A DNA stretch of 62,586 bases, the filler included, from Nemertoderma westbladi (taxonomy: Eukaryota > Animalia > Xenacoelomorpha), in the NCBI GenBank assembly GCA_032718475.1. It is 4 parts of 4 records of this genome, joined end to end, with 100 filler letters (N's around TTAATTAATTAA, not from the genome) between each part and the next. Parts side by side here need not be neighbours in the genome. Positions count along the whole stretch, not along the records: positions 54,306 to 62,586 come from JAUCBJ010000681.1; 3 more parts are not named here. One strand, written 5' to 3'. A program made the translations under genes and the position numbers. The notes below the pieces were generated by a model, which was not told where the DNA came from, did not search any database, and was given only the letters and a program-made list of their open reading frames with translations. Shown piece by piece: positions 11,181 to 62,586 of this stretch. Positions within the stretch are counted from its first letter, which is position 1, and each line of letters starts with the position of its first letter.

Positions 11181-11218
11181 ATGCTATCTTCTCACCGGGA
11201 AGATAGCATAGGGGGGAG
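11181..11218 (+). promoter_or_regulatory. Perfect 11-bp stem-loop followed by polypurine tract of the BEL element
   Basis: ATGCTATCTTC (11181-11191) pairs with GAAGATAGCAT (11199-11209). AGGGGGGAG follows, directly abutting the LTR TG at 11219. Confidence 0.85.
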
Positions 11219-11797
11219 TGTTAGCGAATTCAATTCTGCTAACCACCCCACAAAGTTGGACAAGCAGGGCCTTTAAGCAATATTGGGGAGTATGAGGTTG
11301 ATTGCCAATCGACCTCGTATCACTCCAATAAACGGGGACGACAAACCCCAAAGGGCCACACACACAACGGGGGTCAGAGGTTACACCTCCGGGAGAGGGA
11401 AAGTGACAGTGGAGGGGGAGAACACTCCCAGAGAGATGGGAGGGCGAGAATTAGGTTATTAGCCAATGGGGGGCAGGCATCCGCTGAGTAATATGGCCAA
11501 CCTAGAGCAGTATATTACCAGTTGTTGTTTCTCATATCATTTACTTAGTTAGTCAGTTCAGTTAGGGCGGAACGGCAACTTTTATTACCGTCCACTGCCG
11601 CCACCATCATGAACTATTTTACCGGTGTTTCATTCACTTACTTAATTCAATAACTGTGTCTATGCTTTATTCATTCACTATATTTATACATATTAATCAA
11701 CAACTTCAGAACTCTCAATCCAATAAACTCTTTTCACACACGGCGGGGACACGTAAATAAAACAACCAACCGGTCGGGATTCCTGGATCCCGTAACA
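11219..11797 (+). repeat. 3' LTR of BEL element (579 bp)
   Basis: Begins TGTTA right after the PPT and ends TAACA (inverted termini). Contains CCAAT near 11463, a TATA-like TATATTA near 11511 and AATAAA at 11722. Sequence after 11797 switches abruptly to another repeat. No second copy in the window to confirm. Confidence 0.8.
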
Positions 11798-13442
11798 ATT
11801 TCAGACATATCGCCATCTAGCGGCAGACTGGAGAACTGATGAGATGACAGATAACCTTATCACAAAGGGGTAAGCGTGGAAGATCAATTTCATGCATTTT
11901 TCCCTCTAGCAGCAGACTGGAGAACTGCAGACCAATCACCGACCCCACCAAGACACAGCAGCAGCACACTAGGCTACTGAACTGACACAGGACTGCAGGA
12001 TGTATTCTAAACAGAGCACATACTGATACATAGACAGACAGAAATACAACATATATATTTGACAAGTTTCAGCTTGAACGGATTATAAATAATGGAAAGG
12101 TTGTCTCACTTTAGGACATTTCGCCCTCTAGCGGCTGACTGGAGAACAGATGACCGATAACCTTCTTCACAAAGATTCAACATGTGGTATAGTAGGGCCT
12201 ATAGTACACACTTTGCTGAGATTCAACCATTCGGCTTAAGGTAAACCTGTAAACGAGTTAGAATCACGGAAATGGGAGAAGGTTTTCATCTTCAAACATT
12301 TCGCCCTCTAGCAGCAGTCTGGAGAACTGCAGATGAATCACCCTTCCTCAAAAAGACACAGTATGTAGTCATGGTCTGGTACTTATATTCCAAGACTCCG
12401 CTTAAACAGATTAAGATCAAGTAAAGATACAGGGGGGGGGGGGGGGGAGTGGAAGCTTATCACTTTCATACATTTTGCCCTCTAGCGGTAGAAAGGAGAA
12501 CTGCAGACCAATTACCGACCCCACCAAGATACAGCAGCCGCAGCAGCACACTAATGCAGGATATATTCTAGCTGAGCACATACTGGCAAACAGACAGACA
12601 TACAACATATTTTTGACAACTTTCAGCTTGAACGGATGAAAAATAATGGAATGAGCCAAGGATTTAACTTTCATACATTCGGCCCTCTAGCGGCAGACTA
12701 ATGAACTGCATACAGATTAGCCCCCTTTGAATGACACATGACAGCTAATGGTCGGACTAATACAAATATTACAAGTTTCAGCATGGTCTGTTGGTCGGAT
12801 CCAGACTGGAATCAATACACTTTGCGCCGGATTAACCCGGCGCACTTTACAATAAAAGCGCGCCAATGTGGCGCGTGGCGCGCTCGAAAATCGTAAAGTG
12901 CACCGGCTTTGGCACGTCTGCACGTGGCGCTCCCAAAAATAAAAACCGGCGCCAATTTGTTGGTTTAACAACTACGGAAGTGCCTTAAAAATTGCAATAG
13001 CTGTTCAAAAATTTCGGCTCGCTTCGCTCGCCTTTCTTTTTTCTGTTGTATGGTTACTGCTGAACAGGGACATGCAGACATGTACAGCTCTACAGCAATA
13101 CTGACATTGGCAGACTGGTTACACTCCTTCAAAATTGAAATTGCATTGGCGTGGCGCTCTTCAAAATTGTTTCAAATGTGCGGCGCACTTAAAAATTTCG
13201 TTGGCACAGGGTTTGCTTTGAAATTGCATTGGAGCGTGGCGCGCATAAAAATTGGTTGGCGCACTATCCGGCGCACTTTTTGGATGGATTCCATACAGGG
13301 GTCGGATTAAATGCAGAGATGGTATATGGTGGATGGGAGGACATTTATTAATGTTTGACATGTAGCCCTCTAGCGGGAGACTGTTGTACTGATGACAGAT
13401 GGTCTCGAACAGTCTCTAAAATCTCAACTTTTGGTCTTATTG
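11798..13442 (-). repeat. Repeat-element copy with 7 CTCF-type motifs (same family as 60850-61997)
   Basis: GCCCTCTAGC(G/A)GCAGACTGGAGAACTGCAG variants near 11811, 11901, 12122, 12302, 12477, 12682 and 13365. 13412-13442 is the reverse complement of the unit at ~61043-61075. Confidence 0.85.
12801..13299. mobile_element. Non-autonomous DNA transposon (hAT-like MITE) nested in the CTCF-motif repeat
   Basis: Exact 8-bp TSD GGTCGGAT (12793-12800, 13300-13307). Imperfect TIR CCAGACTGGAATC / GATTCCATACAGG. GGCGC-rich subterminal motifs. Confidence 0.75.
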
Positions 13443-13560
13443 ACAGATTGATGCATTGTACAATTTCTCAACAAAGTTTGTGTCAATTACAATGGACTAC
13501 TACTGTTCGAATTATGTTATGTCCCAAATTCCCCTAACTGTCCCAAATGCCAAATTACAC

Positions 13561-24344: not shown

Positions 24345-24448
24345 TACAACAAAATAATTATTAGATAATTAATAAAACTGAGTTCAGATAAGCATTGTAG
24401 ACCGTAGTCGCATAGCCGTAGGCGGTAGGCAGTTAGCAAACAGTGTTT

Positions 24449-35510: not shown

Positions 35511-35714
35511 AACTTTCATCCAGTCAATTCTGGAACAAAACCCCAACACTTTCAAACGCGATGTAATATTAGCCCATAGGACTCACCGTACGGACTAATT
35601 AACCCAACAGACATGTTGTTACTCGATGCTTATATCTCGCTAAGGCTCCGCCAACTTCGTGGCTCGCCCCACATACTGACATGCAGACTCTTGTACTGTA
35701 CCTACAGTACTGCA

Positions 35715-36954: not shown

Positions 36955-39900
36955 GTTAGTTCCGTTAGTACTGTTCAGTTTATATGTTGCAGCTATATCT
37001 GCAACTCCCCCCCCCCCCCCACCCTTCCCCTGGACACTACACTATGTTCATTTTCTTATATTTCCTTCCCACATTATGCGAATCTAATGTAGGCCCTACT
37101 TATTTTACATTTACTCATCTTGTTTGGTGTTTTTTTTATTAGTTATAATTTGATTTTATATTTCTGGGTAAATAAATTTTAAAAATAAATTTTTATCCGA
37201 ATTCTAGATATTCCAATCCAATTTGACTCCTCAGTGATATATGTAGGCACCTTGATATGTCTGGTGTTAATATTAAAAGATCCAGTATTTGAGATGTCCG
37301 ACCCCGCAGCATTCTTTCGGACATTGCGATATGGCACGTTTTCAGCCGATTGCCGTTTTGTAAGAAACGTGGAGTCAACTGCGGAGATTACCACTATGCT
37401 AACCGTCGGTCTAGTTAGCTATCAAATTGCGGTGGCACCCAGATCAAATGCTGTGCATGTGAGTCTCATATTTACAGATATAATCCATCTGTGGTACATA
37501 GCAACGCGATTGATAACAGGCCGTGAAGTATACGGGTTGGAGATTCGCGATCGTAAGAAGGTCCGCAGTCTATACATAAAATCCTACGCGTTCGTTATGA
37601 ATATTATATCTATAGTTCCATTGGATACTCTTATAAGATTATTCCTTCCGGATACCGGCGGCACTAGTACAAGTAGTGTTGAAGCATTACTGGGGATACA
37701 TCGATATATACGACTCATAGAATTCTTCCGCATCCGTAGCAGATGGGAGGGGAGACCCGGAGCTAACATTACGTTACTTAAACTCAGCGGATTTGGTTTT
37801 TTACTTGTTCAGTGTGTCCATCAAATCGCTTGTCTCATGGTTTACATCGACTGCAACATTGTGTACCAGAAGAGTGATGCTGATGGGGGTATACATCATA
37901 TCGCAGTGTGCGACTCAAACTCTTGGGTTGAACTCATAAAGCAGAAACAAACCTTTGCTAAGTTAGACCTCCACTGGTCCCGTGATTGCTATGTGGTCGG
38001 AATTTACTGGGCTATAATAACAAGCATGTTGGTTGGCTTCGGCGATATAACCTTACCAAATAACAAAGAACAGATGGTAGCGATATTGACAATGCTATGG
38101 GGGTCATTTTGTATGACAGGTAGGTGGTATGTGTGTGTATACAATAGGATAGTACTCTATACGAAATTGGACCGAACTGCATCGAAAACGTGGCGAACTG
38201 GACCGCCAAATGAAAGATAATCTAAAAAAAACCAGCCATGGAGATAAGTGAAAATAAATAAAAATTGAAATTAATATGGTCAATTTATACATTGTAAATT
38301 TAATTGCGTTTAAAATATCGCTTAATTAAGATTATTTGCAGCTCCTCCACTGCTTTTACCAGTCTACCTGTTGAAGGTCTGCATGTGTATATATTGCAGT
38401 GCACAAAATACTGTATTTTGTGCACCGGTCTGCCGGTATATTGTTGAGTAGATACGTTCAATGAGAGGTAGACCTACAATATTGCAATATGCTGACATAA
38501 GTACGCTAAGGGTAGCTTACTTGTCAGACACATACAGACTGACAGACAAGTTAACATTATTATAAGGTATATGCAGGTAGGTCATAGGTGGGCCTACTTA
38601 GGTATGACTGCACTATTAAGCCCGGTACCGGTATCTTTTTATTATCTATACTACTGTACTTCGGCTTCCGGTACCGTCTTCCATTTCCATTGCTGCATTG
38701 AATACAACTACCGGTACGCACAATACTGCAATCTATTAACGCTATAAACCCAGATACCTGCTACCGGTACCCCTTCAGCAGTGTTTTATGTGAAGCAAGT
38801 AATTTTAATTTAGCGACATATTATAAGCAACTAAATTTACAATGTCTAAAAAAACCAAATGAAATTCAATATTAATTTTCACCTGTCTGCAAGGATGGTT
38901 GTTTTAGATTATCTTTCATTTGGCGGTTCAGTTTGGTCCATATCGCCACACTTTCGTTCCAGTTCGGTCCAGTTCGGCCCATATTCGTGTAGAGTACTAT
39001 CCTATACAATAGGACCATTCCAAACTTACGTACACACTTATATTTAATATATACATTTAATATAATTCGTTGAAAACAGAGAAGGTTAGCATGGTCCTGT
39101 TTGGCCATCCGTGCAGGGATGGGTATGTTCATGTTCAATACTGTAGTCAAACTGTATTGCTAAGTTAGGGTATTGCTTTTCGTAAAGGTGGGAGAAAATT
39201 CAAACGCGTTTTAGATTTTTTTTTACTTCTACTTTTTCGAATACGTTATTTTATTACATAAAACGCGCAGTTTTCAGTTAATATCTACGGATTTAGAGAT
39301 CAAGATATTTTACCGTAAATTAACTTAAACTCTTCCTTACATACATATGCTTCTAGTAACCGACGCATGGCACAGTGTGTTATGTACTTCTGTTAGGGCC
39401 TACTTTTAAATATTATATTGCTTCATTAAATTAATTCAAATACATACTGCTATGGCTAACGCCATAAATCAGGAAGATTTTCTCGATTTTATTGCTAATG
39501 ACATAGAGAAACTCGATAGAGCAACATTGCAGCTACAGTACATACCCAGGCATGCAGTTCACCTGTATACATTCATGGTTTCCCTGCAGAAACAACTGTC
39601 TGTAATCCTCGAGTCACAAGTCAAACTGAGGATCCTGCCAGATCCTTTGAGCTGTGGAACATTCCTTTAACAAATCGAACAAAGGCAAATAGAAGATGCA
39701 CAATGATGTAATCTCCGAGAGTAACAAGGGCATGGGAGGGAGGAACAATGATGTCACGAAGAATTGGCTGAGACACAACAATTGATAGACCACATCCAAC
39801 ACGAACCAGTTTCGGTTTATAGAGATATACACAGCATGTGCAGCGGCAACCTTGACGCAATCTCACTAGGTCAGCCTCTTCTAATTTAATACTTATGTTG

Positions 39901-42900
39901 AAGCATTTCTCTGTTGTCGCACAACTTGTTCCAATTCCAACAAATCTCTCTGGATTACGTTCATTTATTGAAATAGTGAATCAACCAAACAGCTTGGTTC
40001 TTTTTCAAAAAGATAAGTTCAGCTGCTGCACCCTCTCATCCACATCTCAAGAAGGCCAATATTTTGGACTTCATTCCCACATTAATGCTGTTAAACTTGC
40101 TCTTGTTTCCCCACAAGTTCTCACACCCTTTCATTCCAATCTTCAAGTGGCCTACATACTAACTCTTCTCGACTAAGATGACTTGGTTTCGCTTTATTAC
40201 AACCAATTTCCTCGGATTATCGTAATCGTACCCTGTGTGGATTGCAATTTTTACAGATATTTGGAATGGCAATATACAGTCATTGAACTTGAAACACTCG
40301 CAATCGCCTGGGCAGTAAAGAAATGTCACCTTATTGGCATCCCTGTAACATAATCGTGAGTGATCACAACACACTTATACCATTTTTCAATGATAAAACT
40401 CTCTCTTGACGCCATTGAGAATCCATGGTTGGGGCGACTCAAGGAGAAACATGCCTTCCTGGCAGATTGGAAGAAAGGTAAAGTTCACTATGCACCAGAT
40501 GCCTCTTGTGCTCATGCCCCAGTCTATAATCCCACATCGGGTGATGTTGTTTTTTAATATGGGATTAACACCAATATTTCTGAACATATTAATGCAACTG
40601 TCAATGCAATAACCGACTATAATTCCTGGCTTAATGACCATAATATTCAGGATTTGAAGGATAATGCTGTTGCTGATAAAATGTACTAGCAGTTAACAAC
40701 AATGTTGCTCAAGTAGGTCACCTTGAGAGGAAAATCCTAACCCTAAATCCAAAAACGGGGGTCCAGAAATTCAGAGTCTCTCAAAATAATTCACAGGGGC
40801 ACGCGTGTTCGACACCCACCAAACCATTACGGATATAAAAACTAACGCTGACTAAATCCCAGCAGGGATGACGCTCAAAACTTACTGCGAAGGGTTAAAA
40901 CTGCTCGACTGCCCGCACTCTCTTCCACCCACCATATTGCCTACGTGCCGGTCCACCTGCCCACCCACCCACCCAACCTACTACCCACCGTCCCTCATAC
41001 CCACCCACGCAACCTACTACCCACCCACCCTCATACCCAGCCACTTGCCTGACCACCCACCAATCCAACCACTCACAAGCCTTCCTGCCGGCCCACCTTC
41101 ATACCCATTCACCAGCAAGTACGCACACCCGCCCACCCATCAGTCAGCCAATAAAGTCTTCAATTCATTTAGGTTTGCTGAATGGAACACTTGCAGCAAT
41201 TATGGCTGACAGACATCAGAATACTGCAAGTTTTACAAAGCACAGCAAGAAAGTGAAGCAATATCTCAAAGCGATCAACTGTCCTGATGATATCAACAAA
41301 ACTGTTATGGATCATTACAGGTTTGTACACTTTTGTGATATTTATCATTATAATTTCACCCTGGCGAAGTAATATAAACATAATTTAACAGAAAACTATA
41401 CATTTCACGCAACACGGAATACACCGTGACAAGCCCCCAACCCCCCCCCCCCCCCCCAAACTGTTCTACAAATCTTAATAAAATTGCATGAAATTTGAAA
41501 CAGTTTCACTTTCATCCTCCTTAGTGGGTGAGCCAGGAATTGTGTCCATCGATATTGCGTCAGTCGTACTACAGTTATTCTCCAACCTTAATAGAGATTT
41601 ATAGTGGAAAAGCTGGCCGTGCAAGGATTCCAAATATCTACAAATATTTGAATTTTGTTGGTAAATAGCTGAGTTATGGGAATTCGAATGTTGCATGTAT
41701 TTGCTACCGCTGCAGGCCATTTATTCTATTTAATAATACACATGTTCTAGAACATTTTGTTTATGTATGAATATCCATGTACTAGTCATTAGGCATTGCT
41801 CCCAAGCTACTATGAGATAAACGATGGCATTTGGATGGAAGAAGTTGAGGATACGAAAATGAACTTACTGACTTGAACCGATTTTATTTCTAATTAAATT
41901 AATTAACTATTACGTGGATACTTAACAATTATATGGAGAATATCACTATGAGATAAGGCGTTCTAGAATTATAAGGCGATGCAGCCGTGCGGGACTGGAG
42001 GCGTTCTAGAATTATAAGGCGATGCAGCCGTGCGGGACTGGAGGCGGACTGGAGGCAAACTATTATTTGTTAATCTTCATAATTTATAATCACCCATTTT
42101 ACGAATACTAACAAATTTTAGACAATTATATTCTGGAAATATAATTATTATAAATTAATTATTGTGTTGTACGTGTTTTCGATAAGGCGTTCTAAACTGT
42201 AGATCATGACGGCGGAATTTAATAGCTAATTTGAGTGTTTAAGTTACAAAGCAAAAACACACTGGAAATACTGTATAATGTAAATGCAAAATCAAAACAC
42301 TTCTACATACTGTATTTATCAAAATGATCTTTAACTTTTGTTCTTATAACCCATCAAATTGATTGCATGTTAAACATTCGGCACTAGTGTGTTATAGGTA
42401 CACCCCCCCTCAATTTTTTTTACTAGCTAGTTTTTGCTATTTCTATTTATGAACATGTTCTAGAACATGTTAGCTATTAAAAAAATATATATATATGTTC
42501 TAGAAAAAAAATTTTTGTTCTAGAACAATTTTAAAAAAAATTAAGAAAATTAAAGTACTATTTTTATGTTTTAATAATGTTCTAGAACATGTTAGCTATT
42601 CAGAACTAGAAAAAAAAAGTTCTAGAACAAATAGTTTTTGTTCTAGAACAGTTCAAATGGTACTAGTGTGTTATAGCTACACCCCCCCTCAAATTTTTAT
42701 TACTAGCTAGTTTTTGCTATTTCTTTTTTTTTGAAATGTTCTAGAACATAAAATACATTTGAAAAAAAATAATAAAATGTTCTAGAACAAATATTTTTTG
42801 TTCTAGAACAAAAAATTAAAAAATCATACAAATTTTATTTTTTGTTAGTTTTTTTTATTTGATGTCAAGGAAAGTGAATTTTCTAGAATAATATAATTTC

Positions 42901-45900
42901 TATAGCTAAAATTTGTGATTGCTAACACGTAAATAATGACTGATTTGGGTATAGTGGAAATGTGTAAGAACTTAATGTGTGAGGAAAGTGCAATTTTTTA
43001 CGCACAGTCAATTGGCCTTTTACCATCCAATGATGACAAGATAATCCGACAATGTTCGAAAATAGGTTGTGATGCTCAAACACGCGTTACATTACTAAAG
43101 AATAAAAGTCGTCTACATTTGATTCACAGATGTAAAGGAAAAGGTAAACATATAGAATCTGCTCGCAAAGGTACCTGGTTTTCTAATTCGAAATTTATGA
43201 TACGTCAAGTTCTATGGATTGAGTACACTTTCGTCAATGCCATTGACTTTACAACAACTCACCGTATGTTAAAAGGAATTATAGGGCAAATCAATAATCA
43301 CAGCCTTGTAGATTGGCATAATTACACGCGGGAATTGTTACACAAAGAAAATCCATTTTCTGATCTATTGCATTTGATTATAAAATATTACCCGCTGCGC
43401 GACGTCTGCTACATATTAAATATTACACAGTATATGTATTCGAAGCATTAATCATTAATTTATCTATGTAACTATCATTAATTTCTGAATATAATGACCT
43501 CAATACAGTGAATTTTTATTTTTAATTAGCTATTAAAAAAATACTAGCTAACCCCCCCCCAAAACCCATCTTGCCAGCAACGATTAAAAAATTATATGAA
43601 ACAAATTCTAAATAAAATTAAAAAAAAAATTTCATTTTTTTAACTGTTCTAGAACAAAAACTATTTGTTCTAGAACTTTTTTTTTCTAGTTCTGAATAGC
43701 TAACATGTTCTAGAACATTATTAAAATAGAAAAATAGTATATTAATTTTTTTAATTTTTTTAAATATTGTTCTAGAACAAAAAATATTTGTTCTAGAACA
43801 TTTTATTATTTTTTTTCAAATGTATTTCATGTTCTAGAACATTTCAAAAAAAAAGAAATAGCAAAAACTAGCTAGTAATAAAAATTTGGAGGGAGGTGTA
43901 GGTATAACACACTAGTGCCGTTCAAATAATATAAAAAATTTTTTTTTAATTTTATTTAGAATTTGTTTCATATAATTTTTAATCGTTGCTGGGAAGAGGG
44001 GGTTTTTTTGGGGGGGGGGGGGGGGGGGGGGGGTTAGCTAGTTTTTTTTTTAATAGCTAATTAAAATTAAAAAATTCACTGTATTGAGGTCATTATATTC
44101 AGAAATTAATGATATGCTTAGAATACGTATACTGTATAATAGATATTATTTAGCAGACAGCGGGTAATATTTTCTGATCAAATCCAACAGAGCAGAAAAT
44201 TGGTTTTCTTTGTGTAGAAGCTTCCAACGAAACTCAGCAAGTCAAATCTTAGCTATAGAAATTCGAATATTCTAGAAAATTCAATTTCCTTGACATCAAA
44301 TAAAAAAATACTACCAAAAATATCATTTGTAAGCTTTTTTTAAAATTTGTTCTAGAACAAAAATTATTTGTTCTAGAACATTTTATTATTTTTTTTCAAA
44401 TGTATCTCATGTTCTAGAACATTTCATAAAAAGAAATAGCAAAAACTAGCTAGTAAAAAAAAGTTGAGGAGGGGTGTACCAGACACTAGTACCAAACATT
44501 CTAGAACGGTAGCTACTGTAGTACCAAATATTAAATATTTAGCTAAACATTTTGCGTTAATTTATATCGTTATAATGTGTCTCCACTTTTATGAACATTT
44601 TTTTGCTATTTTCAGAAGTATTTTGTGGAAATTGTCTTTCTAAATTGATAGGTGATTTTCTACAATAATGGTAGTAAATTTTTTTCTACAAAATCTCTTA
44701 GAATCCCATCCAGAATTATACAAGCTGTATACAAGCAAAGCTGTGCCCAAAAAAGGTTATAAGATTTATATGCACTGCGCTGTTTTTGACCCCCGCACAT
44801 GACGAGAATTTGAGAACACAGCTTTACCCGAATCGATACTGCTCGTATTGAACGAATGAACTGGAGTTTCCAAAGCACTGCGGGGAAGGTCGCATCTAAT
44901 CTTATAATCTAATCTAATCTTATAAAATTTTCTGCGCTTTTTTTTCGGCTTTTTTGCGGAATCTTGTCGATCTGCTGCCTGGTACTATAAACACCAACCT
45001 CTGTTTTTTTTCGGATTTATCTGAAGATAGTTATTTATCATCCAAGAGCATCTACTATCAGTTCTAGGACAAAATATTGTTCTTAATGCTATCGATCTCA
45101 GTGGCCTTCACAGAAACAAATTGAATGATAATTGTTCCAGCATGACAAAGAAATCAGTTGTATATGCATTATATAATGCGGGTCCCAAGATGATGCCCTG
45201 GGAACTCCTGTTTTTAGATGGTGCTTTGGAGAATGTTCATTTTCAATTACAACTACCTGACGCATGTTTTCCGGCCGTGTTAAGAAATCGCTGTTGTAAA
45301 CACAACAAACATTTATGGTGTGAACCTGTGAACACATTTAACATTTAGGTGTAACTAGTTATTATTTATTAGTCAGAATAGTACGATACCCCAAAAGGGA
45401 CATGATTTGACAAAAAAATACAACTTTCTAACATTTCTAAATGAATATTGTATTGAGGGATATTATTAAATAATGATTTTTCTTCAATTTAGTTATGTGT
45501 GGAATGTGTACCACGGGAGACAAGTGGATGTTTCTAAGGATACGATATTCTTTGACTACCTAGTGAATGCCGAAGCATATAACATCATTTTGCAGAAAAG
45601 TAAACTTTTGTACGACCTTCCGAAGGCATTTTCCAGGCATTTGCATCGGAAATTCAAGGAACAATTAGCGGTGCCCAATGAAATAATATTTGAGAAGGGC
45701 ACTATTAATGATGCCTTAATATTTGTGTCTAAAGGTTCGGTTGAAGAGGAACACGAAGGTTTAGAAGATAATGTTGAGTATATTGTTGGAGATATTTTAT
45801 GTGAGAAGGCACTTGTCGAGAATACTATTTGGGACTACAACATGCGTTCCACGAATTACACGCAGATTGTGGTTTTACATAGACGACATTTACATAATGC

Positions 45901-48900
45901 CATGGCGTCGTTTGACGATGTATGCAAAATTATCCAATCTCGACAAAGAACCTTATTAGATGAGATGCGAGCATCAGATGTCAAAGATATAGGTATCGAT
46001 AAAGATATCGATAAAGGTACGCGAAAGTCATTCATTCAAGAAATGCCAGATGTTCAGAAACCGCCTACTGTTAAAATGTCAATGCAATCATTCAATGAAA
46101 CAATAGTAAACTTAATCGATTATATAAGACAAATTAAAGCTAAATTTAAATGGTTTATAAATGAACTCGCATCTCCAAAGTCGCCAGTAACCAAGTATTA
46201 TGAATACTTTCTTTTCGCCGTGATTATTGCAAGTTCCTTATATATTCTCAACATTGTCACTCATAATCTTGATGGACATGCGGCATTGCCTGTATGTTGG
46301 ATATTTGAAGTATTATTTGCATTCGATATATATGTCAGGCTGCATATGGCCGTGTTCAGTTACAACGGGGATTTGTTGTTTGATAAGGTCACCATTCGTA
46401 ATGCTTACCTATATCGCCCTGTATTTATCATTGACCTCCTGCCAGCATTACCCTTTGAATACCTTCTTTCCATAGTTCATGCATTTGGCTTTATTGGGGT
46501 ATTAATTCTGGACAGATGGATAATACGCATTCATATTAACTGTGTATAGCAATAGCAGAGTTATTTTTTTGAAATTTTCTATATTTTTGAAAAATGTACT
46601 TTTTCTTGAAAATGTCCATTATTTTGAAAATAAAAATCCGATGTAATTGTTTATACTCTTAGATTAGAGATATGTGAACCGTTTTGTTACATTGAATGTA
46701 ACTAGAGATTATTGACTAGAGCCAAGTATAGGTAAGTGCAAGTGTTCCAACTCGGGCCACTGACCCCTTCCGTGAATTTTTGCAACAAATTTTATCCATA
46801 ACCTAAAATATTTCAAGGGGCAATGTTAAACAAGCAAATATTCGGAAAAATTTATTACAAAATGTAATGTAAAGTATAATGCTGCATGTTTCCTTTATCC
46901 AGAATTGATGCAATTATAGGAGGAAAATTACAAAGTTTTCGTGAATTTATCACTGTTGCATCTCATCCTTAAGATATTTAAGATTCCACGACTGTTTCGG
47001 TTACTGGATGATGATCTAAACGTATCTCCTTTGAAAACACTGTTATTTAAAATGGTTGTCTACACTTTCGTATACCTTCTCTACATTGTATCGGGCAGCT
47101 TGTATATTTCTGTTTGTGGTTTTGAGAAGTGTAACACAAAGTCATGGCTGCAAGAAATTCTCAAAATTGAACAAGTTGAAAAAGCGTTTGAAACAGGGGA
47201 AACAATAGAGCCAAATATAATTCTCAACTACACTTGGAGTTACTATTCTTCGTTGTACTATACAATATCCACAATAACTACAACTGGATATGGTGATATG
47301 ACCCCTAAATCCTTAGACGAAATGATTATTATTTGTCTTTGTATATTGTTTTCTCATTTTCTATTGGGATTTGTGCAAGCCAACATTGCCACATTGATAG
47401 TTAACAGGGAACGGAATGCTGTTAAGTTCAAAGAGACATTAACATACGCGACACATTTACTTGCGAGCAACAATATTCTAGAACAGACACAGGTAAGTCT
47501 TAAACAGAGCATGCGGGCCATATGGGATGAATTTCATGGGGAGGTTATACCGGGTCATACACATATAATGGATGACCTACCCTCGCCGTCGTTAAGATCT
47601 GCCGTGAAATATATCGAATGCCAATCTTTTCTGAATAGTAATGTAATTTTTCAAACATTGCCCAGGCACGTAGTATATAAATTGTTGGATCACATGAACT
47701 TGTACATATTTGCTCCACATCAAACAATAAAACATCATTCTGGTTTGAGAACAAGTTATTATATAATATGCAGTGGCATGGTTGAGGTGAGAAAACCTAT
47801 TCGTAAAATGCGTGGTTATAGACTTCGGTACAGAAGTGTATGCACACTGGCACAACGTGATTATTTTGGTCTCAGTATGTCATCAATTGGATTACAGTTT
47901 CGAGCTGTGTCAAAAGTGAAAGTTTACATAATTGGCTCAGAAGCGCTGTGGGCCCTTCAAAATGAGCATCCAGACACTGGGCACTGGGTCAATGACCTAT
48001 TTGGCGAACTGCAGGAGTTTAGAGAAGATAAGGTTGGAGATCATGTTGCCAAATTTGCTAATAAGATTGGTGGTGATACTGATGGGGGAATTAATAAAGA
48101 TAGGCTTGATCAGGTTGATATTGGTATTGATGATATATATGCTGATTCAGATACTGATTATGTTGCTGATGATGTTTCTGTAGGTTTATCATTTGTTTCG
48201 GCAAATGTGGAAATAGAAAAAACATCACTAGTTTCTCAAGAATCATTAATTGGTGAAGAGGAAGGTTTCAAAGGTAAAGGACCATGTGCTATAATTTTAC
48301 GATACATTACTAGCTGGATATCACTGCACATTATTCGCAAAGCCCTTATTATCACTGTCTATTTCACATCCATATTTTCAGTGACATCGAATTTCTACAT
48401 ATGGGCTTTTATGCACATACTACATCCAGATGATAAACAAAGAATTTTGTTCATATTTCTTTCATGGTATGTTGCTGATTTTATATTGTGGTTTGATATG
48501 ATCGTTCAGTGGCATAGTATTGAATCTTATCTTAATAGGATTATTCTTATTATTGCTAATTTTCCATTTGAATGTTTTGCTGGTTGTATTTATGGATTCC
48601 AGATGGATGATACACATGCTAATGTAGCAACATTGAGGTTAGTAAAGATACTTCATATAACCCGCTCAGTCCCATTCATTCAATCCACTCTAAATGATGT
48701 CAAACGAGATACTATTCGACTTCAAAAGATCGTTTTCTCTGTTGCTACACTTATCATAGTATTTATTTGCTCGTGTATCCTGTATTACATCTCCTGCCCA
48801 CCAAGCAATATTGCTTGTATACTTTTCCACTATGACTGCCCTGCCATCGAATACATATACGATGATGGTGGCGGGAAGTACAATTGGTCTATTCGGGTGT

Positions 48901-51900
48901 TAGACTATCTATACGACGAGGAGATTCGAGGGTCAGGGTTTTTAGGCGAAGGTTCCAGATGTTTCGCTCATACTTGGGTAGCTTCATTGTCTGATGATAT
49001 AGTTAAATCCTGGGACACAGTTAAACAATCATTTGCCTATACCGAACTTTCATTTTCAATATATTATGCGATGGCCACTGCAATGAATGTTGGATACGGA
49101 GATATACTACCACGGTCTGACATTGAGAGGGGTTTGTGTATGATTATGATGATAGGTGGAATGTTGTGCAACTATTACGCTTCCGGCGTATTGTCTGCTG
49201 CACTCTCTACAAACGAAGACAAAGATATGTACATTGAAAATGTAAAAAAGTCAAAAGAACTTATGAAAAAATCGAGGGTAAGTGAAAATACACGGAAAGC
49301 CGTGTCAAGGTTCTTTTCCTACAACTGGGATCGAACTGGCGGGATCAATCCGAAGAAAGTCTTCAGAGGCCTTAATCCGACACAGATTGAGGACTTGTGT
49401 TATAAGATGTACAAACCTTTTATGGATCAGGTTTTTGTTTTTAGGGACTCTGATGACACATTAATGAGACAGCTAGTAGTAGCTATAGATCTACAATACT
49501 ATATGGAGAGGGAAGTAGTTTTTCGTGAGGGGGACAGTGGAGAGTTTATATACTTTATTACTCGAGGTGAAGTTTCCCTCATAAATCAATTCGATAATAA
49601 AGTTTACTGTAAATTAGGTGTTGGTGAAAGCTTTGGAGAAGCGTCTGTATTGTTTAATATTACCCAATCTGAAACTGTGGTATGCTCCTCATACGTTGAT
49701 GTTTATGCGCTTTCTAAAGCAGATTTTGATAAAATATTTACTGCTGGAAAATATATGGAAGTCAGAACCTGTTTTGAAAACCGTGCCCATGACAGACTTC
49801 GTGAAGTTTACTTATACAAGAAATTCTTCGGATCAGACCGCGATCCCTCCAAAAATAATTTACCTCGCAATTGTGTTGATGAGTTAGTTAGAAATAATGA
49901 GGGAAGTAAATCTGTCGAGTTATTAAAACCTTCTTATACAGATTCAAAAAATGTTGAAGGTAAATCTACTGAGTTGAAAGGTCCTTCAAATGAGGACTTG
50001 CAAAAGATTACATCTACATTGAAGGTAGCTCAAGTATTTACTGAAAATGAGGAAGTTCAGAAAAGAATAGTTGATGATCGAAAATCTTTTCGAACAGAAA
50101 AATTGGGCGTTCTGATACCTCACTCAAAAAGTTCATTTGCCCTGAATGCATTGGTTTTCGTATTGAGTGTATTCTCAGTGTGGCTATGCTTGTACGATTA
50201 TACATTTACACCACAAAATAATGAGTGGGTTAAGATGGCGAGCGTATGCTTGGATGTTTTGTATACTCTACGCTTTGTTTCAAAATTATATACCGCTCAT
50301 CTAACAAAGAATCATGAATTGGTTACAGATAAGAAAGAAATCTGGGCCATGTATTGTAATGATGATAAAGGTTTGTATTGGGACATTGTTGCGTGGACAC
50401 CCATCAGCGTGATCGCATACGTTGTAGATTTAAATACAGGAGAGGTGGGAGGAATACTGGATTATAAACCAGCAATCAATGTTCTATCCTCTGTTAAGCT
50501 CTTTCATATATTTCGTCTTCATGGTATATTTCAATTTTGTGCTGAGTGGAGAGAATATCTTTACGCCAATCACTTTGCGGCAACGATTGTTACCCAGGCA
50601 ACATTGTTTCTGGTCGTTGTCAATATTTTGGCATGTTTCTGGTATTGCTACGCTTGTCCTCAAAGTTATGCTTGCTTTGCGCATTCCTGGATGGCAAAGG
50701 TTTCAGGAACACTGAGAAATACTTGGTCCAGAGTAAGTTACATTTTATAGACCACTACTTAATTCCAGTCGTATACTAATTATATTTACTGATTAATTTT
50801 CTTTTAATAAAATGTCGGTTCTTTTCTATATTGGTCCTACAATCCTGACTTGTTCTTGTTTAAAAACTGTGCACAGTAATCTTATGAAGTGTTAGATTAC
50901 CACGGAGTATGTAATGTTATGTGAAAATGGAAACCTTAACTTTCACTATATAAATTGTATAATAATTTTTGAATTTTGGATTCATATTATTGTTATAATT
51001 TTCAAAATTAAAATCAATTAAAGTCGGAATTGACTTATAGGTGGGACCTCCAGGTTGGATTCAGGTGGGATCGAACTGGTGACCTCCAGGTTGGATGTCT
51101 GTAGCTCTAACCATTCTGATAACAGCTCAGGTAAAACGTAGACCTGGAAAGACAACCTGATAATTTGTTAAACTCCTTTAGTAGGCCCTACAGAATATTT
51201 TTTATTTATCTTTTTTATCTATACTGATGATGTTTTAAATTTTGTGTGTGGTTGAAGCGGGATTATTCTTTCCGACTTACTATATATTAAATAGAACATC
51301 TGTACAGTGTATGATAATGAGATACCTGATACTTACCTAACAACTCAGGAATGAAAAATATTTGTTATCAGGACTGCTAAGCGTGACTACGCGTAGCACC
51401 TACGCGAATTCTATATGCGTAGTTTCAAAATACCTAGGCGTTGTCATAAAAATCATACGTGTAGTTTTAAAACATCTACGCCGCGTAGTTGTTAAAAAGG
51501 CACTAAGTCTGGCCCTGCGAATGACAAGAATGAAAGTTACAAATTACGTACTGAAATACGTTATTCCCACCACCATAAACAAAGAATACTGTACCTTATT
51601 ACTTAGGGCTGGCTGTGGCGGGAAATTAAAAAAAAACAATATATTTTAAAAACAATTTTCTCCAAAAACAATTTGTTTATTTTATCTAGAAACAACAAAT
51701 TATTTTATGGCAATAATATCAATATGACATTTTCTAAAATGAATCTGGTAAACTGCAATATACTGAAGCAATCAGTTTAACAGCTTATCTTTAATGTTTC
51801 AGTATATTGTGAGCTTATATTGGGCAACTGCAACAATTACCACTGTTGGGTATGGTGACGTGACTGCAACTCATAAAGACGAGGCCCTTTATTCCATTAT

Positions 51901-52077
51901 TGCAATGCTACTGGGTCATATGTTATTGTCTGTTGTGCTAGCCAATACAATGGTTGTGATTATAAGAACGACAGCCCTAAAGAACAGATTCGAAGTGAAA
52001 TTGTCTAATTACAGAACCTATATGAAGACAATTGGAGTAAAGGACAACTACATTCGGTCAACTATAACAAATATGAG
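36910..52077 (+). CDS. Four-repeat K+-type cyclic-nucleotide-gated-family channel (CNGK/tetraKCNG-like), partial; exons 36910-36954, 37208-38119, 41173-41320, 45493-46498, 46920-50732, 51803-52077
   Basis: All six exons have AG/GT sites and join in phase (1,1,2,0,0,2) into ~2065 uninterrupted codons. Four TM modules with pores GFGD (38035), GYGD (47286), GYGD (49092) and GYGD (51848), each followed by a C-linker. Three CNBD-like domains visible. Start codon and fourth CNBD not found. Confidence 0.85.
37208..38119 (+). CDS. Channel exon: repeat 1 S1-S6 and pore
   Basis: FVMNIISIVPLD, HRYIRLIEF, YVVGIYWAIITSMLVGFGDI. Donor AG|GTAGGT. Acceptor could be 37208 or 37235. Confidence 0.85.
38147..39002. 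mobile_element. Mutator(MULE)-type non-autonomous element in channel intron
   Basis: Exact 9-bp TSD TATACAATA (38138-38146, 39003-39011). Long TIRs beginning GGATAGTACTCTA. Confidence 0.88.
39880..40700 (+). mobile_element. Highly decayed Gypsy RT/RNase H remnant
   Basis: PTNLSGLRSFI, VKLALVSPQVL, IELETLAIAWAVKKC, LDAIENP, WKKGKVHYAPDA spread over shifting frames. Confidence 0.7.
41173..41320 (+). CDS. Channel exon: repeat 1 S6 end and C-linker
   Basis: TTTAG|GT TTG..TAC AG|GTTTGT. Reads LLNGTLAAIMAD..FTKHSKKVKQYLK..VMDHY. Confidence 0.85.
42659..43919 (+). mobile_element. Merlin-family element (inner, nested) with deleted transposase
   Basis: TIR GGTACTAGTGTGTTATA / TATAACACACTAGTGCC, exact 8-bp TSD GTTCAAAT (42651-42658, 43920-43927). 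Confidence 0.9.
42936..43451 (+). pseudogene. Merlin/IS1016-like transposase lacking the DDE core
   Basis: N-terminal GLL..C..C, SARKGTWFSNSK and LVDWHNYTRE are joined directly to the C-terminal NPFSDLLHLIIKYYP. Confidence 0.75.
45493..46498 (+). CDS. Channel exon: CNBD-like domain 1 and repeat 2 S1-S3
   Basis: PNEIIFEKGTINDALIFVSKGSVE, DIYVRLH, FIIDLLPALPFE. Acceptor TTTAG, donor GGG|GTATTA. Confidence 0.85.
46920..50732 (+). CDS. Channel exon (3813 bp): repeat 2 S4 to repeat 4 S5
   Basis: Open frame of 1271 codons with TTTGYGD, AMNVGYGD and VFREGDSGEFIYFITRGEV..SFGE. Donor AGA|GTAAGT. Confidence 0.92.
51060..51128 (-). mobile_element. tRNA-derived SINE head / tRNA-like remnant
   Basis: Minus strand shows A-box-like TATCAGAATGGTTAGAGC and B-box GTTCGATCC. 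No clean cloverleaf. Confidence 0.5.
51803..52077 (+). CDS. Channel exon: repeat 4 pore, S6, C-linker
   Basis: TTTCAG|YIVSLYWATATITTVGYGDV...NM AG|GTAAAT. Confidence 0.9.
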
Positions 52078-52577
52078 GTAAATTAACAATATTAATTTAC
52101 TTCTTAATTAACTTAAGTTAATATTAAAATAATAATATACTCATCACCACCCCCCCCCCCCCCCCCCCTCCATCGTGGGCAGGTCCGCGGAAAAATTCAC
52201 GGGCCCTATGGGCGCATTTCAGAATTAAGATTGGGTGAACCCTGACGTCCGTTATCACAAACAACGTCGTGACAACGACAGTAAAGTCTTCTGCTGATGC
52301 AGAATCAGTGTACTCATACCAAGGCTTCCTTTAAAACATGTAGTGAATATTACTACTAAGATCAGCATGCTGCATTTCAGCTGCATTTTTAAGAATGCTG
52401 TGCCGGCTTGTCGACAAAATTGCGCCGCCAAAACTCCCTATCACCCATGACATTTGCCAGATCATCCACATCTTCAAGGCCAGTGTCTCAAGAGATTCAT
52501 GGGCTGTCCACCATGCTTATTGACTCCATGAGGCCACCAAAGCACAAGATTATGCATTGGGTGGTTCTCACGGCGAA

Positions 52578-54305: not shown

Positions 54306-54592
54306 CAGTAACATCAATTAATTGCATAAAATGAATATGAATGTCATGTATATTTCTATACATTGTAATACAGTATTACTGAAAAATTAAGCATTCAGAG
54401 CGCCGATAAGTTTACATAATGTAACAAAATTATGTTATGTGTAAAAAGGGTAAAAAGGGCACTCACTAATTAACAATATAAATTAATTGCAGTTACTACA
54501 ATAACAATAACTGTACGCTAAATAATCCTTCACTTACCATATAATGCAGAATCATGGCCTACTATATTTATACGGCCTAACAGGTCACTTAG

Positions 54593-55470
54593 CTGGCCTC
54601 TTAAAAAGAGGCCAGTTTTTTTTAACAATATTTTGAGATTTTGATATGGGAAGAGTATTATAAATTTTCATTTGCAGCAATTTGGTCAACGGATGTAATT
54701 GAAGTCTCCTCATTAAGCAAGATACTAAATTTTATGGTAGCTAGTGTTTTAGGTAGGTTTAGCTAGTAATTTCCACACTGCACTGGTTCCGACATCCTAC
54801 TTCCTTCTATAATTTTTTTTAGTAGCTAGATTTTATTACTATTAGTATAGAAAATGTTCCAGAACATGTTAGCTATTCATTTTAAAAAAAAAATATGTTC
54901 TAGAACAAATATATTTTGTTCTAGAACATTTTTTTGAAAAAAATCTGGATTATGTTTAAAACGCATGGAATCGTTCTAAAACGTGTTGAATATATAAATA
55001 ATTTTCGAAATTTTTTTTTCCAAAAGATTTTTCAACAATATTTTTTTTCACAATTTTTTTTATTGATTTTCAACACGTTTTAGAACGATTCCATGCGTTT
55101 TAAACATAATCCAGATTTTTTTCAAAAAAATGTTCTCGAACAAAAAATATTTGTTCTACTGTAGAACATATTTTTTTTTATAAATGAAGAGCTAACATGT
55201 TCTGGAACATTTTCTATACAAATAGTAATAAAAACTAGCTACTAAAAAAAATTATAGAAGGAAGTAGGATGTCGGAACCAGTGTTGAAATTACTATCTAA
55301 ACCTATCTAAAACACTAGCTACCATAAAATTTTGTATCTTACTTAATGAGGGAACAGACTTCAATTACGTCCATTGACCAAATTACAGCAAATGAAAAAT
55401 CATAGAACTCTCCCCATATCAAAATCTCAAAATATTGTTAAAAAAAACTGGCCTCTTTTTAAGAGGCCAG
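54593..55470. mobile_element. ~880-bp foldback (near-palindromic) MITE; second copy starts ~62233
   Basis: Left and right halves are reverse complements (CTGGCCTCTTAAAAAGAGGCCAG ends). Carries TGTTCTAGAACA motifs. Confidence 0.85.
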
Positions 55471-60667: not shown

Positions 60668-60849
60668 GTAATGATACACTTCTAGAACACGTCTTGAGTA
60701 TTATCCATTGCCCAGTAATAATACACTTCTAGAACACGACTTGAGTTTTCTCCGTGGCCCTAGAGTGGAATGGATGATAGCCATAGATTATTTACCGTAC
60801 AGTTGTTACAGTAACATCAATTAATTGCATAAAATGAATATGAATGTCA

Positions 60850-61997
60850 TGTGGGGCGAGCCACGAAGTTGGCGGAGCCTTAGCGAATTGACACTGTTAG
60901 GGGGTGGGTCAATTTATGCAAATAGTTGTCGTCGTCGTCGTTGTCGTCGTCGTCGTCGTCGTCGTTGTCGTCGTCGTTACGATTTTGACATGCTAATAAC
61001 TTTGTCGGATTTAAAGCTGCCAAGTTGAAAATTTGTAGGTATCAATATGAGCAAAAGTTGAGATTTTTGAGAGACGTTCAGACACCATCAGTGCAATGGT
61101 CTCCCGCTAGAGGGCCACATGTCTAAACATTAAATGCCCTCCCATTTCTTTGCTTTTAATCCGTTTAAGCTGAAACTTGGCAGATATGTATTAGACCATT
61201 AGCTGTGACTTTCAAAGGAGGCGAATCCATCTGCAGTTCTCCAGTCTGCCGCTAGAGGGCCAAAGGTCTGAAAGTGAAATCGTTGTCGTCGTTACGATTT
61301 TGACATGCTAATAACTTTGTCGGATTTAAAGCTGCCAAGTTGAAAATTTGTAGGTATCAATATGAGCTAAAGTTGAGATTTTTGAGAGACTTTCAGACAC
61401 CATCAGTGCAATGGTCTCCCGCTAGAGGGCCACATGTCTAAACATTAAATGCCCTCCCATTTCTTTGCTTTTAATCCGTTTAAGCTGAAACTTGGCAGAT
61501 ATGTATTAGACCATTAGCTGTGACTTTCAAAGGAGGCGAATCCATCTGCAGTTCTCCAGTCTGCCGCTAGAGGGCCAAATGTCTGAAAGTGAAATCGTTG
61601 TCGTCGTTATGATATTGACATGCTTATAACTTTGTCGAATTTAAAGCTGCCAAGTTGAAAATTTGTAGGCATCAATATGATCAAAAGTTGAGACGTTTGA
61701 GAGACTTTCAGACACCATCAGAGCAATAGTCTCCTGCTAGAGGGCCACATGTCTAAACGTTAAATGTCCTCCCATTTCTTTGCTTTTAATCCATTTATGC
61801 TGAAATTTGGCAGATATGTAATAGACCATAGGCTGTGGCTTTGTAGGGAAACTAATCCTTCCTTCTTCAGTTACCCAGTCTCCCGCTAGAGGGTTAACGT
61901 TTTCCGGGAAAATCTTCTCCTATGTTTTTATAATCCTTTCGAGTTGATACTTAGCATTAACTCATTTCACGTGCTGCGCGAAGGCCCCACTTCGTGT
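60850..61997 (+). mobile_element. DINE/HINE-like (Helentron-associated, tentative) non-autonomous element with 315-bp internal tandem repeats carrying CTCF motifs
   Basis: Absent from the matching sequence at 54306-54360. 5' hairpin GCCA-CGAAGT-TGGC, short sub-TIR GTGGGGC/GCCCCAC, (CGT)n at ~60927-60977, ~3 units of period 315. The same 5' end recurs inverted at 35635-35673. Confidence 0.75.
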
Positions 61998-62586
61998 ATA
62001 TTTCTATACATTGTAATACAGTATTACTGAAAAATTAAGCATTCAGAGCGCCGATAAGTTTACATAATGTAACAAAATTATGTTATGTGTAAAAAGGGCA
62101 CTCACTAATTAATAATATAAATTAATTCCAGTTACTACAATAACAATAACTGTACGCTAAATAATCCTTCACTTACCATATAATGCAGAATCATGGCCTA
62201 CTATATTTATACGGCCTAACAGGTCACTTAGCTGGCCTCTTAAGAAGAGGCCAGTTTTTTTTTTAACAATATTTTGATATGGGAAGAGTATTATAAATTT
62301 TCATTTGCAGCAATTAGGTCAACGGACGTAATTGGAGCCTCCTCATTAAGCAAGATACTAAATTTTATGGTAGCTAGTGTTTTAGGTAGGTTTAGCTAGT
62401 AATTTCCACACTGCACTGGTTCGGACATCCTACTTCCTTCTATAATTTTTTTTAGTAGCTAGTTTTTATTACTATTAGTATAGAAAATGTTCCAGAACAT
62501 GTTAGCTATTCATTTAAAAAAAAAATATGTTCTAGAACAAATATATTTTGTTCTAGAACATTTTTTTGAAAAAAATTTGGATTATG
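61998..62586 (+). repeat. Direct duplicate of ~54350-54954
   Basis: Collinear with scattered substitutions and small indels; 60809-60852 matches 54306-54349. Confidence 0.9.

What the first reader, a model, noticed from the sequence alone, without database searches (positions are those of the whole stretch)
60850..61997. Mobile cassette delivering six same-orientation CTCF sites, with its empty site present in the same window
Seen: 54306-54360 reads ..GAATGTCATGTATATTTC.., while the duplicate reads ..GAATGTCA-TGT-[~1.14 kb]-TGT-ATATTTC. The insert has a 5' hairpin, a (CGT)n tract and 315-bp units with two motifs each (cores at 61104, 61249, 61419, 61564, 61734, 61883). This shows the CTCF-motif array moves as a unit. 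Its sites point away from those at 11.8-13.4 kb, so the two clusters flank the channel gene divergently. Inference: a DINE/HINE-like element spreading ready-made boundary arrays, or self-insulating against silencing.
Basis: partly seen in the sequence, partly recalled or inferred. Interest (0 to 1): 0.7.

Follow-up and report, generated by a model that had tools for sequence, protein, structure and literature searches.

The report
Jumping DNA carrying six CTCF motifs
A 1.1-kb non-coding repeat, present at this spot in the assembled genome but absent from the matching sequence of two other samples, carries six same-direction copies of a motif shaped like the binding site of the chromosome-organising protein CTCF, so each new insertion would likely drop a ready-made cluster of such sites, though binding and any boundary effect are untested.

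Summary
The insertion is real. 1,145 bp sit between two TGTs, and the empty form is found at 54.3 kb and, independently, in public contigs of two other samples that join the flanks across one TGT. The element belongs to a high-copy family (roughly hundreds) with fixed ~35-bp and ~31-bp ends and exchangeable interiors.

Its six motifs are two ancestral ~150-bp monomers triplicated in tandem. The 11.8-13.4 kb cluster is the same monomer family, not an independent partner. Across 8 diverged monomers the 12-bp core is 96% identical and an upstream module at CTCF's two-part spacing 77%, against 38-48% in the distal parts. Inside the element's own third unit, however, the motif decays as fast as the rest.

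The interior is HINE-like (microsatellite plus central repeats), but the ends fail HINE criteria (no TT target, 7-8-bp inverted words), so the mobilising enzyme is only inferred. The 'divergent flanking' claim carries no weight: three scaffold gaps intervene and the channel gene's end is not seen. Host clade, CTCF gene and occupancy are untested. Transposon-borne CTCF sites are known in mammals, zebrafish and lamprey; a polymorphic multi-site array in a probable invertebrate was not found in my searches.

The parts
60850..61997 (+). Non-autonomous mobile element, 1,145 bp plus one shared TGT; exact boundary ambiguous over 4 registers
   Evidence: empty form in contigs of X2 and X3
60850..60852 (+). 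Left TGT, fixed across the family (element base or strict target)
   Evidence: 57 contigs in X3 and 17 in X4 diverge exactly before 60850; same TGT at 35673
60850..60884 (+). Left terminus (~35 bp) shared by families with different interiors; weak hairpin
   Evidence: loose ends behind 60884 in X2 (29), X3 (21), X4 (10); folds
60925..60978 (+). (GTY)n microsatellite; 13-bp remnants at 61282 and 61597 start units 2 and 3
60967..61281 (+). 315-bp unit 1 (monomers A1 and B1), cores at 61104-61115 and 61249-61260
   Evidence: 311 of 315 bases identical to unit 2
61282..61596 (+). 315-bp unit 2 (A2 and B2), cores at 61419-61430 and 61564-61575
61597..61899 (+). Diverged unit 3 (A3 and B3), about 88% identical to units 1 and 2; cores at 61734-61745 and 61883-61894, each with one mismatch
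61087..61120 (+). Example two-part CTCF-type box: upstream module at offsets -17..-10 plus 12-bp core; same register at all 13 monomers
61967..61997 (+). Right terminus (~31 bp) shared by many families; 3' stem-loop 61976-61997 reaching into the TGT
   Evidence: joints to 61967; summed depth rises about 20-fold at 61967-61973; folds
61995..61997 (+). Right TGT
54306..54954 (+). Second copy of the flanks without the element (single TGT at 54347-54349); allele or local duplicate unresolved
35637..35673 (-). Second, 37-bp identical left terminus followed by an unrelated interior; no right terminus found in the window
11778..13476 (-). Older array of 7 monomers of the same family (cores begin at 13376, 12693, 12488, 12314, 12134, 11912, 11823); no element ends found
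   Evidence: nhmmer of the insert gives E 3.6e-31 to 1.5e-5; alignment
37189..52081 (+). Detectable part of a four-pore, cyclic-nucleotide-binding K+ channel gene (CNGK-like; label recalled); fourth CNBD not found in the window
   Evidence: Pfam; four G[YF]GD pores; tblastn

Best explanation
This is a non-coding, high-copy mobile element that is present or absent at this site among samples, likely copied by a rolling-circle (Helentron/Helitron2-type) transposase encoded elsewhere, and its satellite-like interior carries two-part motifs predicted to bind CTCF, most likely as long-conserved cargo rather than as a boundary selected at this locus. Steps. (1) Shown: fixed ~35-bp and ~31-bp ends enclose exchangeable interiors. 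(2) Inferred: a trans-acting enzyme recognises these asymmetric ends and joins the strand at a TGT, one TGT belonging to the element and one to the target, so there is no true duplication. (3) Shown: the six motifs come from two old monomer types (A and B, 56% identical) triplicated in tandem, which is why they point the same way. (4) Shown, with an ascertainment caveat: across deep monomer splits the core and the upstream module are held while the rest drifts. (5) Inferred: CTCF binding was the constraint. (6) Untested: each insertion would add 4-6 co-oriented CTCF sites and could act as a local barrier.
For: Mobility: empty-form contigs in two studies. In X1 and X3 only one single-copy-depth contig covers 62013-62030 and it does not enter the element. 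The element's last 132 bp lie on one contig of depth 12,515 in X1 against 36 for the flank contig, and 5,286 against 27.8 in X3 (rough ratios 350 and 190, and the tool warns depth is no copy number). Modular ends: 57 + 17 contigs start at 60850; 29, 21 and 10 diverge after 60884; several joints lead to 61967; a second left end sits at 35673. HINE-like interior: microsatellite then 145/170-bp monomers, as in oyster Cg_HINE with 140-180-bp monomers (PMC7492417). End asymmetry: an 8-bp inverted word 12 nt from the left end and 1 nt from the right end, and a 7-bp word at 1 and 7 nt. A variant in an X4 loose end turns the G-T wobble of the 3' stem into A-T (one contig). CTCF shape: identity among 8 monomers is 0.96 core, 0.77 upstream module, 0.62 spacer between them, 0.70 at +12..+23 and 0.38-0.48 further out. 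There is no indel between module and core in 13 of 13 monomers, and 10 of 13 read CAGTnC there against a background of 0.001 per position. Module plus core span about 34 bp, as in the 33/34-bp two-part motif (PMC3368268; module letters and register recalled). A against B differs at 1 of 20 module+core bases and 34 of 94 other bases.
Against: No transposase was found or testable, because no genome is held. The ends fail HINE features, and neither terminal hairpin beats dinucleotide shuffles (z -0.09 and -0.76); the 3' stem alone gives 47 of 1000 in a post hoc mononucleotide test. The monomers were picked by their core, which inflates core identity. The control HMM built without the box found the same 12 monomers, all with a core, but was trained on them. 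The filled junction was seen in none of the three runs laid on it, so it rests on the assembly (contigs drop rare variants). The host clade is unresolved: channel homologues at about 25% identity include a nemertean, a crinoid, amphioxus and a tunicate, but also corals, and CTCF is bilaterian-specific (PMC7535936).
Confidence: 0.55

Rival explanations
1. Self-insulating parasite: the CTCF boxes are kept by selection on the element itself, because CTCF binding keeps copies open or unmethylated and so able to transpose.
For: Several high-depth subfamilies with the same ends carry different monomer combinations that include the box, e.g. joints 61582 to 61967 (depth 2,365, X1), 60904 to 61548 (347, X4) and 61594 to 61802 (5,286, X3). 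In X1, 30 contigs start matching only at 61545, the start of the box. Units 1 and 2 differ at 0 of 40 module+core bases and 4 of 257 other bases (too few to test). CpG is not depleted in the insert (observed/expected 0.92).
Against: In unit 3 the box is not spared: A2 against A3 differs at 2 of 20 box bases and 11 of 150 others, B2 against B3 at 3 of 20 and 17 of 91. Elements with the same ends but unrelated interiors exist (35673 copy), so the box is not required for carrying the ends. The many loose ends behind 61594 are explained by the unit junction, not by box conservation.
Confidence: 0.2
2. Same cargo, different motor: a tyrosine-recombinase (Crypton-like) element using short terminal direct repeats, or a DDE element with a strict TGT target and a true 3-bp duplication.
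For: The 3-bp direct repeat at both junctions is equally read as a duplication. Cryptons have 4-6-bp terminal direct repeats and no TIRs (PMC3212892). Some contigs (4 in X1, 1 in X2) join the reverse complement of the right end to the inner left end, so forms with symmetric ends may exist.
Against: There are no terminal inverted repeats in this copy. The repeat is 3 bp, not 4-6, and animal Cryptons were reported without terminal repeats. A microsatellite plus central repeats is the architecture described for Helentron derivatives.
Confidence: 0.25
3. The box is not a working CTCF site: it is a conserved satellite box bound by another protein or by the transposase, or the host has no CTCF.
For: All 13 motifs descend from one monomer family, so the match arose once. 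Conserved boxes occur in oyster HINE monomers. Four further invariant bases at +15..+18 lie at the edge of or beyond the core. The host is unidentified.
Against: The two conserved blocks have CTCF's order and fixed spacing, with a less conserved spacer between them. The best-scoring named channel homologues are bilaterian.
Confidence: 0.12
4. A host-selected pair of boundary arrays placed divergently around the channel gene.
For: The clusters are on opposite strands with the channel exons between them.
Against: The 61-kb array is absent in the contigs of two other samples. Three gaps separate the clusters. The gene's 3' end is not seen. In echinoderms CTCF motif orientation shows no pattern at boundaries (PMC13317027), though an excess of convergent pairs was reported for amphioxus (PMC10013865).
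Confidence: 0.04
5. Assembly artefact, or a deletion in the 54.3-kb copy.
For: The 54.3-kb copy starts at a gap, and the filled junction was not seen in the contigs laid.
Against: The empty form exists in two other samples, and the insert's ends coincide with family ends defined by dozens of unrelated contigs. A 3-bp overlap would not be expected to drive a misjoin (inference).
Confidence: 0.03

Closest known systems
HINE / DINE-1 non-autonomous Helentrons (PMC4067079, passages read), especially oyster Cg_HINE (PMC7492417, part 2 of 7 read)
   Same: Non-coding; microsatellite near the 5' end; central tandem monomers of 140-180 bp, a few per copy; shared ends with different interiors; possible terminal hairpins.
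   Different: No TT or T-rich target; inverted words of 7-8 bp, not 11-15; 3' stem at the very end instead of a subTIR 38-60 bp inside; fixed TGT at both junctions. CTCF was not linked to these elements in what I read or in the CTCF + Helentron search.
Helitron2 (PMC3627910, passages read)
   Same: Asymmetric short inverted repeats (8-15 bp), hairpins at both ends, 5' T in two of four registers.
   Different: No clean 3' inverted repeat 20-30 bp from the end upstream of the hairpin; the target differs from the reported TTTT|T/C; no RepHel partner shown.
Transposon-borne CTCF sites: mammalian B2 and other SINEs (PMC3368268), zebrafish non-autonomous DNA transposons such as TDR13B (PMC7182764, Table S3 read), lamprey hAT-Tip100 (PMC5504073); passages read
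   Same: A repeat family spreads CTCF motifs, in rodent B2 with the upstream module.
   Different: Those are vertebrates with ChIP evidence. Here the motif is built into every monomer of a tandem array, up to six per insertion, the insertion is polymorphic, the host is probably an invertebrate, and there is no binding evidence. Table S3 lists no Helitron or Crypton names.
CTCF-bearing macrosatellites DXZ4 and ICCE (search listing and abstract starts only)
   Same: Tandem units in which CTCF motifs are reported as the conserved part (from titles and abstract starts).
   Different: Single-locus, kilobase units in mammals; not mobile.
Replitrons (PMC10288648) and Cryptons (PMC3212892); passages read
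   Same: Short direct repeats at the termini and no terminal inverted repeats.
   Different: Their repeats are 4-6 bp; Replitrons were not reported from animals; no enzyme is identified here.
Helitron minisatellite insulators in C. elegans (10.64898/2026.08.08.743475, passages read) and Helitron-marked loops in Xenopus sperm (title in a reference list only)
   Same: Helitron-type repeats linked to chromatin barriers or loops.
   Different: The worm case rests on DNA bending in a species without CTCF; the frog paper could not be read.

Membership tests
HINE / Helentron | subTIRs of 11-15 bp | tested here: not met
   longest exact inverted words between the ends are 8 and 7 bp; criterion
HINE / Helentron | 3' subTIR 38-60 bp from the 3' end, followed by a palindrome | tested here: not met
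   inverted words lie 1 and 7 nt from the right end, or 12 nt from the left end if the strand is reversed
HINE / Helentron | insertion in T-rich sequence with at least two T on each side | tested here: not met
   empty site reads ..GTCA TGT ATAT..; no TT in any of 4 registers
HINE / Helentron | 3' stem-loop | tested here: inconclusive
   stem 61976-61997 forms; z -0.76 on the 58-mer, 47 of 1000 post hoc; one variant contig improves the pairing
HINE / Helentron | microsatellite plus central tandem repeats | tested here: met
HINE / Helentron | no target-site duplication | tested here: inconclusive
   TGT on both sides; fixed at the left in 57 + 17 contigs; right side not resolvable from contigs
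HINE / Helentron | autonomous Rep/helicase partner with the same ends | not testable with these tools
   no genome held; left-end pattern found 0 times in metagenome contigs
Helitron2 | 8-15-bp asymmetric inverted repeats; 5' copy 0-2 bp from the end inside a hairpin; 3' copy 20-30 bp from the end | tested here: inconclusive
   7-8-bp words, asymmetric, 5' hairpin possible; only a gapped alignment reaches the 20-30-bp zone
Helitron1 | 5' TC, 3' CTRR, insertion between A and T | tested here: not met
   none of the 4 registers gives TC...CTRR on either strand
DDE TIR transposon / MITE with 3-bp TSD | terminal inverted repeats | tested here: not met
Crypton / Replitron | 4-6-bp terminal direct repeats | tested here: not met
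   the direct repeat is 3 bp; criteria
Crypton / Replitron | tyrosine recombinase or Y1 Rep partner | not testable with these tools
   no genome held
CTCF binding site (M1+M2) | core motif | tested here: met
   against a recalled consensus, no matrix available: 4 of 6 exact and 2 of 6 with one mismatch in the insert
CTCF binding site (M1+M2) | upstream module at fixed spacing, 33/34 bp in all | tested here: met
   fixed register in 13 of 13, CAGTnC in 10 of 13; spacing from PMC3368268; module letters recalled
CTCF binding site (M1+M2) | host encodes CTCF and it occupies the site | not testable with these tools
   no genome and no ChIP data; host clade unresolved
SINE or structured-RNA repeat | tRNA- or Rfam-related head | tested here: not met
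   0 Rfam matches at E up to 1; 0 tRNA genes

The most novel reading that the evidence does not exclude
An active family of invertebrate DNA parasites with undescribed TGT-targeting ends that is selected to carry tandem, full two-part CTCF sites to shield itself from silencing, and that thereby scatters hundreds of ready-made, polymorphic insulator arrays through the genome.
Probability: 0.18. Interest if true: 0.8.

Novelty: new variant of a known kind. Interest (0 to 1): 0.5.

Why it matters
Whether CTCF builds boundaries outside vertebrates is open: motif orientation shows no pattern in echinoderms, while a convergent excess was reported in amphioxus. A family that adds 4-6 co-oriented two-part sites per insertion and segregates as filled and empty alleles is a natural experiment for that question. 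It also warns that motif counts and orientation statistics in such genomes may be dominated by one repeat family. The fixed TGT junction and short modular ends should lead directly to the unknown transposase.

Tried and rejected
Whole-genome copy counting was impossible (no genome). The left-end pattern gave 0 hits in metagenome contigs and 1 chance hit in GC-rich viral coding DNA (L001). The box pattern gave 1 metagenome locus (L002) with no homology to the monomers (best E 0.014). Rfam and ARAGORN found nothing.

Terminal hairpins are not significant. A TGTAT target preference is suggested but rejected as a claim: contigs must overlap about 31 bases to be laid, which favours flanks that happen to continue like this site, and contig ends at 61995-61996 are explained by other families merging at 61967. 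The 12-14-bp matches to the left end at 15355 and 16649 lie inside another repeat and were not counted. The loose ends behind 61594 were dropped as evidence for box conservation.

Host identification through the channel failed (best identities 25-30%). The protein atlas did not answer. Three look-ups of earlier scan findings gave nothing relevant.

Literature searches without a direct precedent, judged from listings: CTCF + Helentron (2 papers held, 1 listed); CTCF + transposable element + tandem repeat + invertebrate + motif; CTCF + one candidate host taxon; CTCF + Helitron + binding sites; CTCF motif + DNA transposon + zebrafish; CTCF + satellite/Pearl/monomer (47); supersized/Helitron/CTCF; CTCF + invertebrate phyla. 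Repbase, Dfam, subscription papers and bioRxiv supplements could not be searched and may already hold this family.

Full report
1. The observation. The filled site has TGT at 60850-60852 and 61995-61997 with 1,145 bp added, and the copy at 54306-54954 has the same flanks with one TGT. Its left 44 bases are identical and its right flank matches at 577 of 587 aligned bases. It begins directly after a scaffold gap, so on its own it is a weak witness.

Public contigs settle the empty state. Record 12 of run X2 and record 19 of run X3 (different samples and studies) run through the junction with 110 and 170 bases on the left and 224 on the right, at depths of 29.8 and 27.8 and with 0 and 1 substitutions. 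Over 62089-62254 the 54.3-kb copy differs from the 62-kb flank by 3 substitutions and a 9-bp insertion just before it, whereas these contigs show no substitution there, so they represent this locus. In X1 and X3 only one contig covers 62013-62030 and it does not enter the element; X4 has no cover there. The filled junction is therefore seen only in the assembly. Contigs drop rare variants, so this does not show absence. Summed depth at 62088-62174 is near single-copy in X1 and X3, so the 54.3-kb copy may be the other haplotype or a local duplicate; this is unresolved.

2. The family. One contig covering the last 132 bp has depth 12,515 in X1 against 36 for the flank contig; in X3 the figures are 5,286 and 27.8. 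The tool warns that depth is no copy number, so I read this only as hundreds of copies. Fifty-seven contigs in X3 and 17 in X4 diverge exactly before 60850 into unrelated sequence (agreement 0.39 and 0.46), which fixes the left end including TGT. Others diverge after 60884 (29, 21 and 10 contigs) or join at 61967, where summed depth rises about 20-fold. A second left end of 37 identical bases with another interior lies at 35673. So short ends enclose exchangeable interiors. The listed joints are 15 of 324 and the listed loose ends 24 of 1,909, so these counts are partial.

3. The interior. A (GTY)n tract (60925-60978) is followed by 315-bp units, each made of a microsatellite remnant and two monomers. 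Units 1 and 2 are identical at 311 of 315 bases and unit 3 is about 88% identical. Monomers A and B are 56% identical. The six sites are thus two sites amplified three times, which explains their common direction. The 11.8-13.4 kb cluster is the same family: nhmmer with the insert gives E 3.6e-31 to 1.5e-5 there, and a family HMM finds exactly 13 monomers in the window. That array has no element ends, has an unrelated stretch of about 0.5 kb between 12.8 and 13.3 kb, and abuts an LTR retrotransposon-like element.

4. Are they CTCF sites? Against a 12-letter consensus recalled from memory (no matrix was available), the window has 9 exact matches where 0.06 are expected, but they share one origin. 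The stronger evidence is the conservation profile. Among 8 diverged monomers (A2, B2 and six of the seven older ones; B3 and one near-duplicate left out), identity is 0.96 in the core, 0.77 at offsets -17..-10, 0.62 in the spacer between, 0.70 at +12..+23 and 0.38-0.48 further out. With the near-duplicate included the first three are 0.93, 0.78 and 0.66. The upstream block keeps its register in 13 of 13 monomers and reads CAGTnC in 10. A two-part 33/34-bp motif is described for mammals (PMC3368268, passages) and upstream motifs for lamprey and zebrafish; the letters of the upstream module and the register of the core are my recall.

Against this: the monomers were selected by their core, the control was trained on the same monomers, and in unit 3 the box has changed as fast as the rest (2 of 20 against 11 of 150; 3 of 20 against 17 of 91). 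The constraint therefore shows in deep splits, not in recent divergence inside the element. The host is an animal of unresolved clade. Homologues of the neighbouring channel at 25-30% identity come from a nemertean, a crinoid, amphioxus, a tunicate and corals (4 of the 8 clusters looked up carry names), and CTCF is bilaterian-specific (PMC7535936, passages).

5. How it moves. There are no terminal inverted repeats. The ends share an 8-bp and a 7-bp inverted word placed asymmetrically. Both ends can fold but not better than shuffles. The 3' stem runs into the TGT, and one X4 contig carries a change that improves it. Four boundary registers are possible; none gives Helitron1 ends or a TT target. 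By the criteria of PMC4067079 and PMC7492417 the interior is HINE-like and the ends are not. By PMC3627910 the ends are compatible with, but not diagnostic of, Helitron2. Replitrons and Cryptons have 4-6-bp direct repeats. I commit to a rolling-circle enzyme acting in trans at TGT as the likeliest motor, by inference from architecture only. It works like a HINE; it is not filed as one.

6. The flanking claim. Four pore loops of a cyclic-nucleotide-binding channel lie at 38032, 47280, 49086 and 51842. No fourth nucleotide-binding domain is found after 52.1 kb with six homologues as queries, so the gene may run past the insert. Three scaffold gaps separate the clusters, one cluster is polymorphic, and motif orientation is not patterned at echinoderm boundaries (PMC13317027, passages). 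I give the arrangement no weight.

7. Novelty. Repeats spreading CTCF sites are established in mammals, zebrafish (non-autonomous DNA transposons; Table S3 read) and lamprey, and satellite-carrying HINEs are established in oyster. Eight searches, judged from their listings, showed no report of a mobile satellite array with a two-part CTCF motif in each monomer. Repeat databases, subscription papers and one paper on Helitron-marked loops in frog sperm (title only) were out of reach. I recall CTCF-like motifs in similar repeats of bony fish; this comes from no call and is a lead only. Verdict: observation confirmed, interpretation partly supported, new variant of a known kind, interest 0.5.

Noticed in passing
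window 60786-60826 and 62120-62166: Old inverted arms (76-91% complementary) on either side of the insert: it landed inside a small palindromic host element.
   Followed up: partly
window 54593-55470; also 42377-44507, 55894-56050, 62232-62586: Large foldback repeat family. The ORF at 42933-43451 beside the 43339-44216 palindrome looks, from recall only, like an IS1595/Merlin transposase fragment; Pfam gave no hit.
   Followed up: partly
window 60862 (loose ends): Contigs in X1 (4) and X2 (1) join the reverse complement of the right end to the inner left end at a shared 4-base word, suggesting end exchange or a symmetric-ended subfamily.
   Followed up: no
window 37189-52081: Four-pore cyclic-nucleotide-binding K+ channel gene with a 3.8-kb uninterrupted ORF, only 25-30% identical to its best homologues; fourth CNBD not in the window.
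   Followed up: partly
window about 123-11798: BEL/Pao-type retrotransposon (DUF1759, protease; label recalled), with extra ORFs at 7897-10163 lacking Pfam hits; it appears to end about 12 bp from the last motif of the older monomer array.
   Followed up: no
L002:2447-2527: Two exact CTCF-type cores in divergent orientation about 58 bp apart in an animal-like metagenome contig, not homologous to the monomers here.
   Followed up: partly
window 52578-54205: 28-bp minisatellite of 58 copies running into a scaffold gap, just after the last detected channel exon.
   Followed up: no
window 14185-16880: Two copies of another repeat with degenerate 10-bp tandem arrays and inverted ends, each with a 12-14-bp match to the element's left end nearby.
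   Followed up: partly
window 59604-60667: A 1-kb element with long inverted arms (about 82%) lies immediately left of the insertion region.
   Followed up: no
window 20979-24368 (-): Gypsy-type retrotransposon ORFs (RNase H, integrase) broken into several frames.
   Followed up: no
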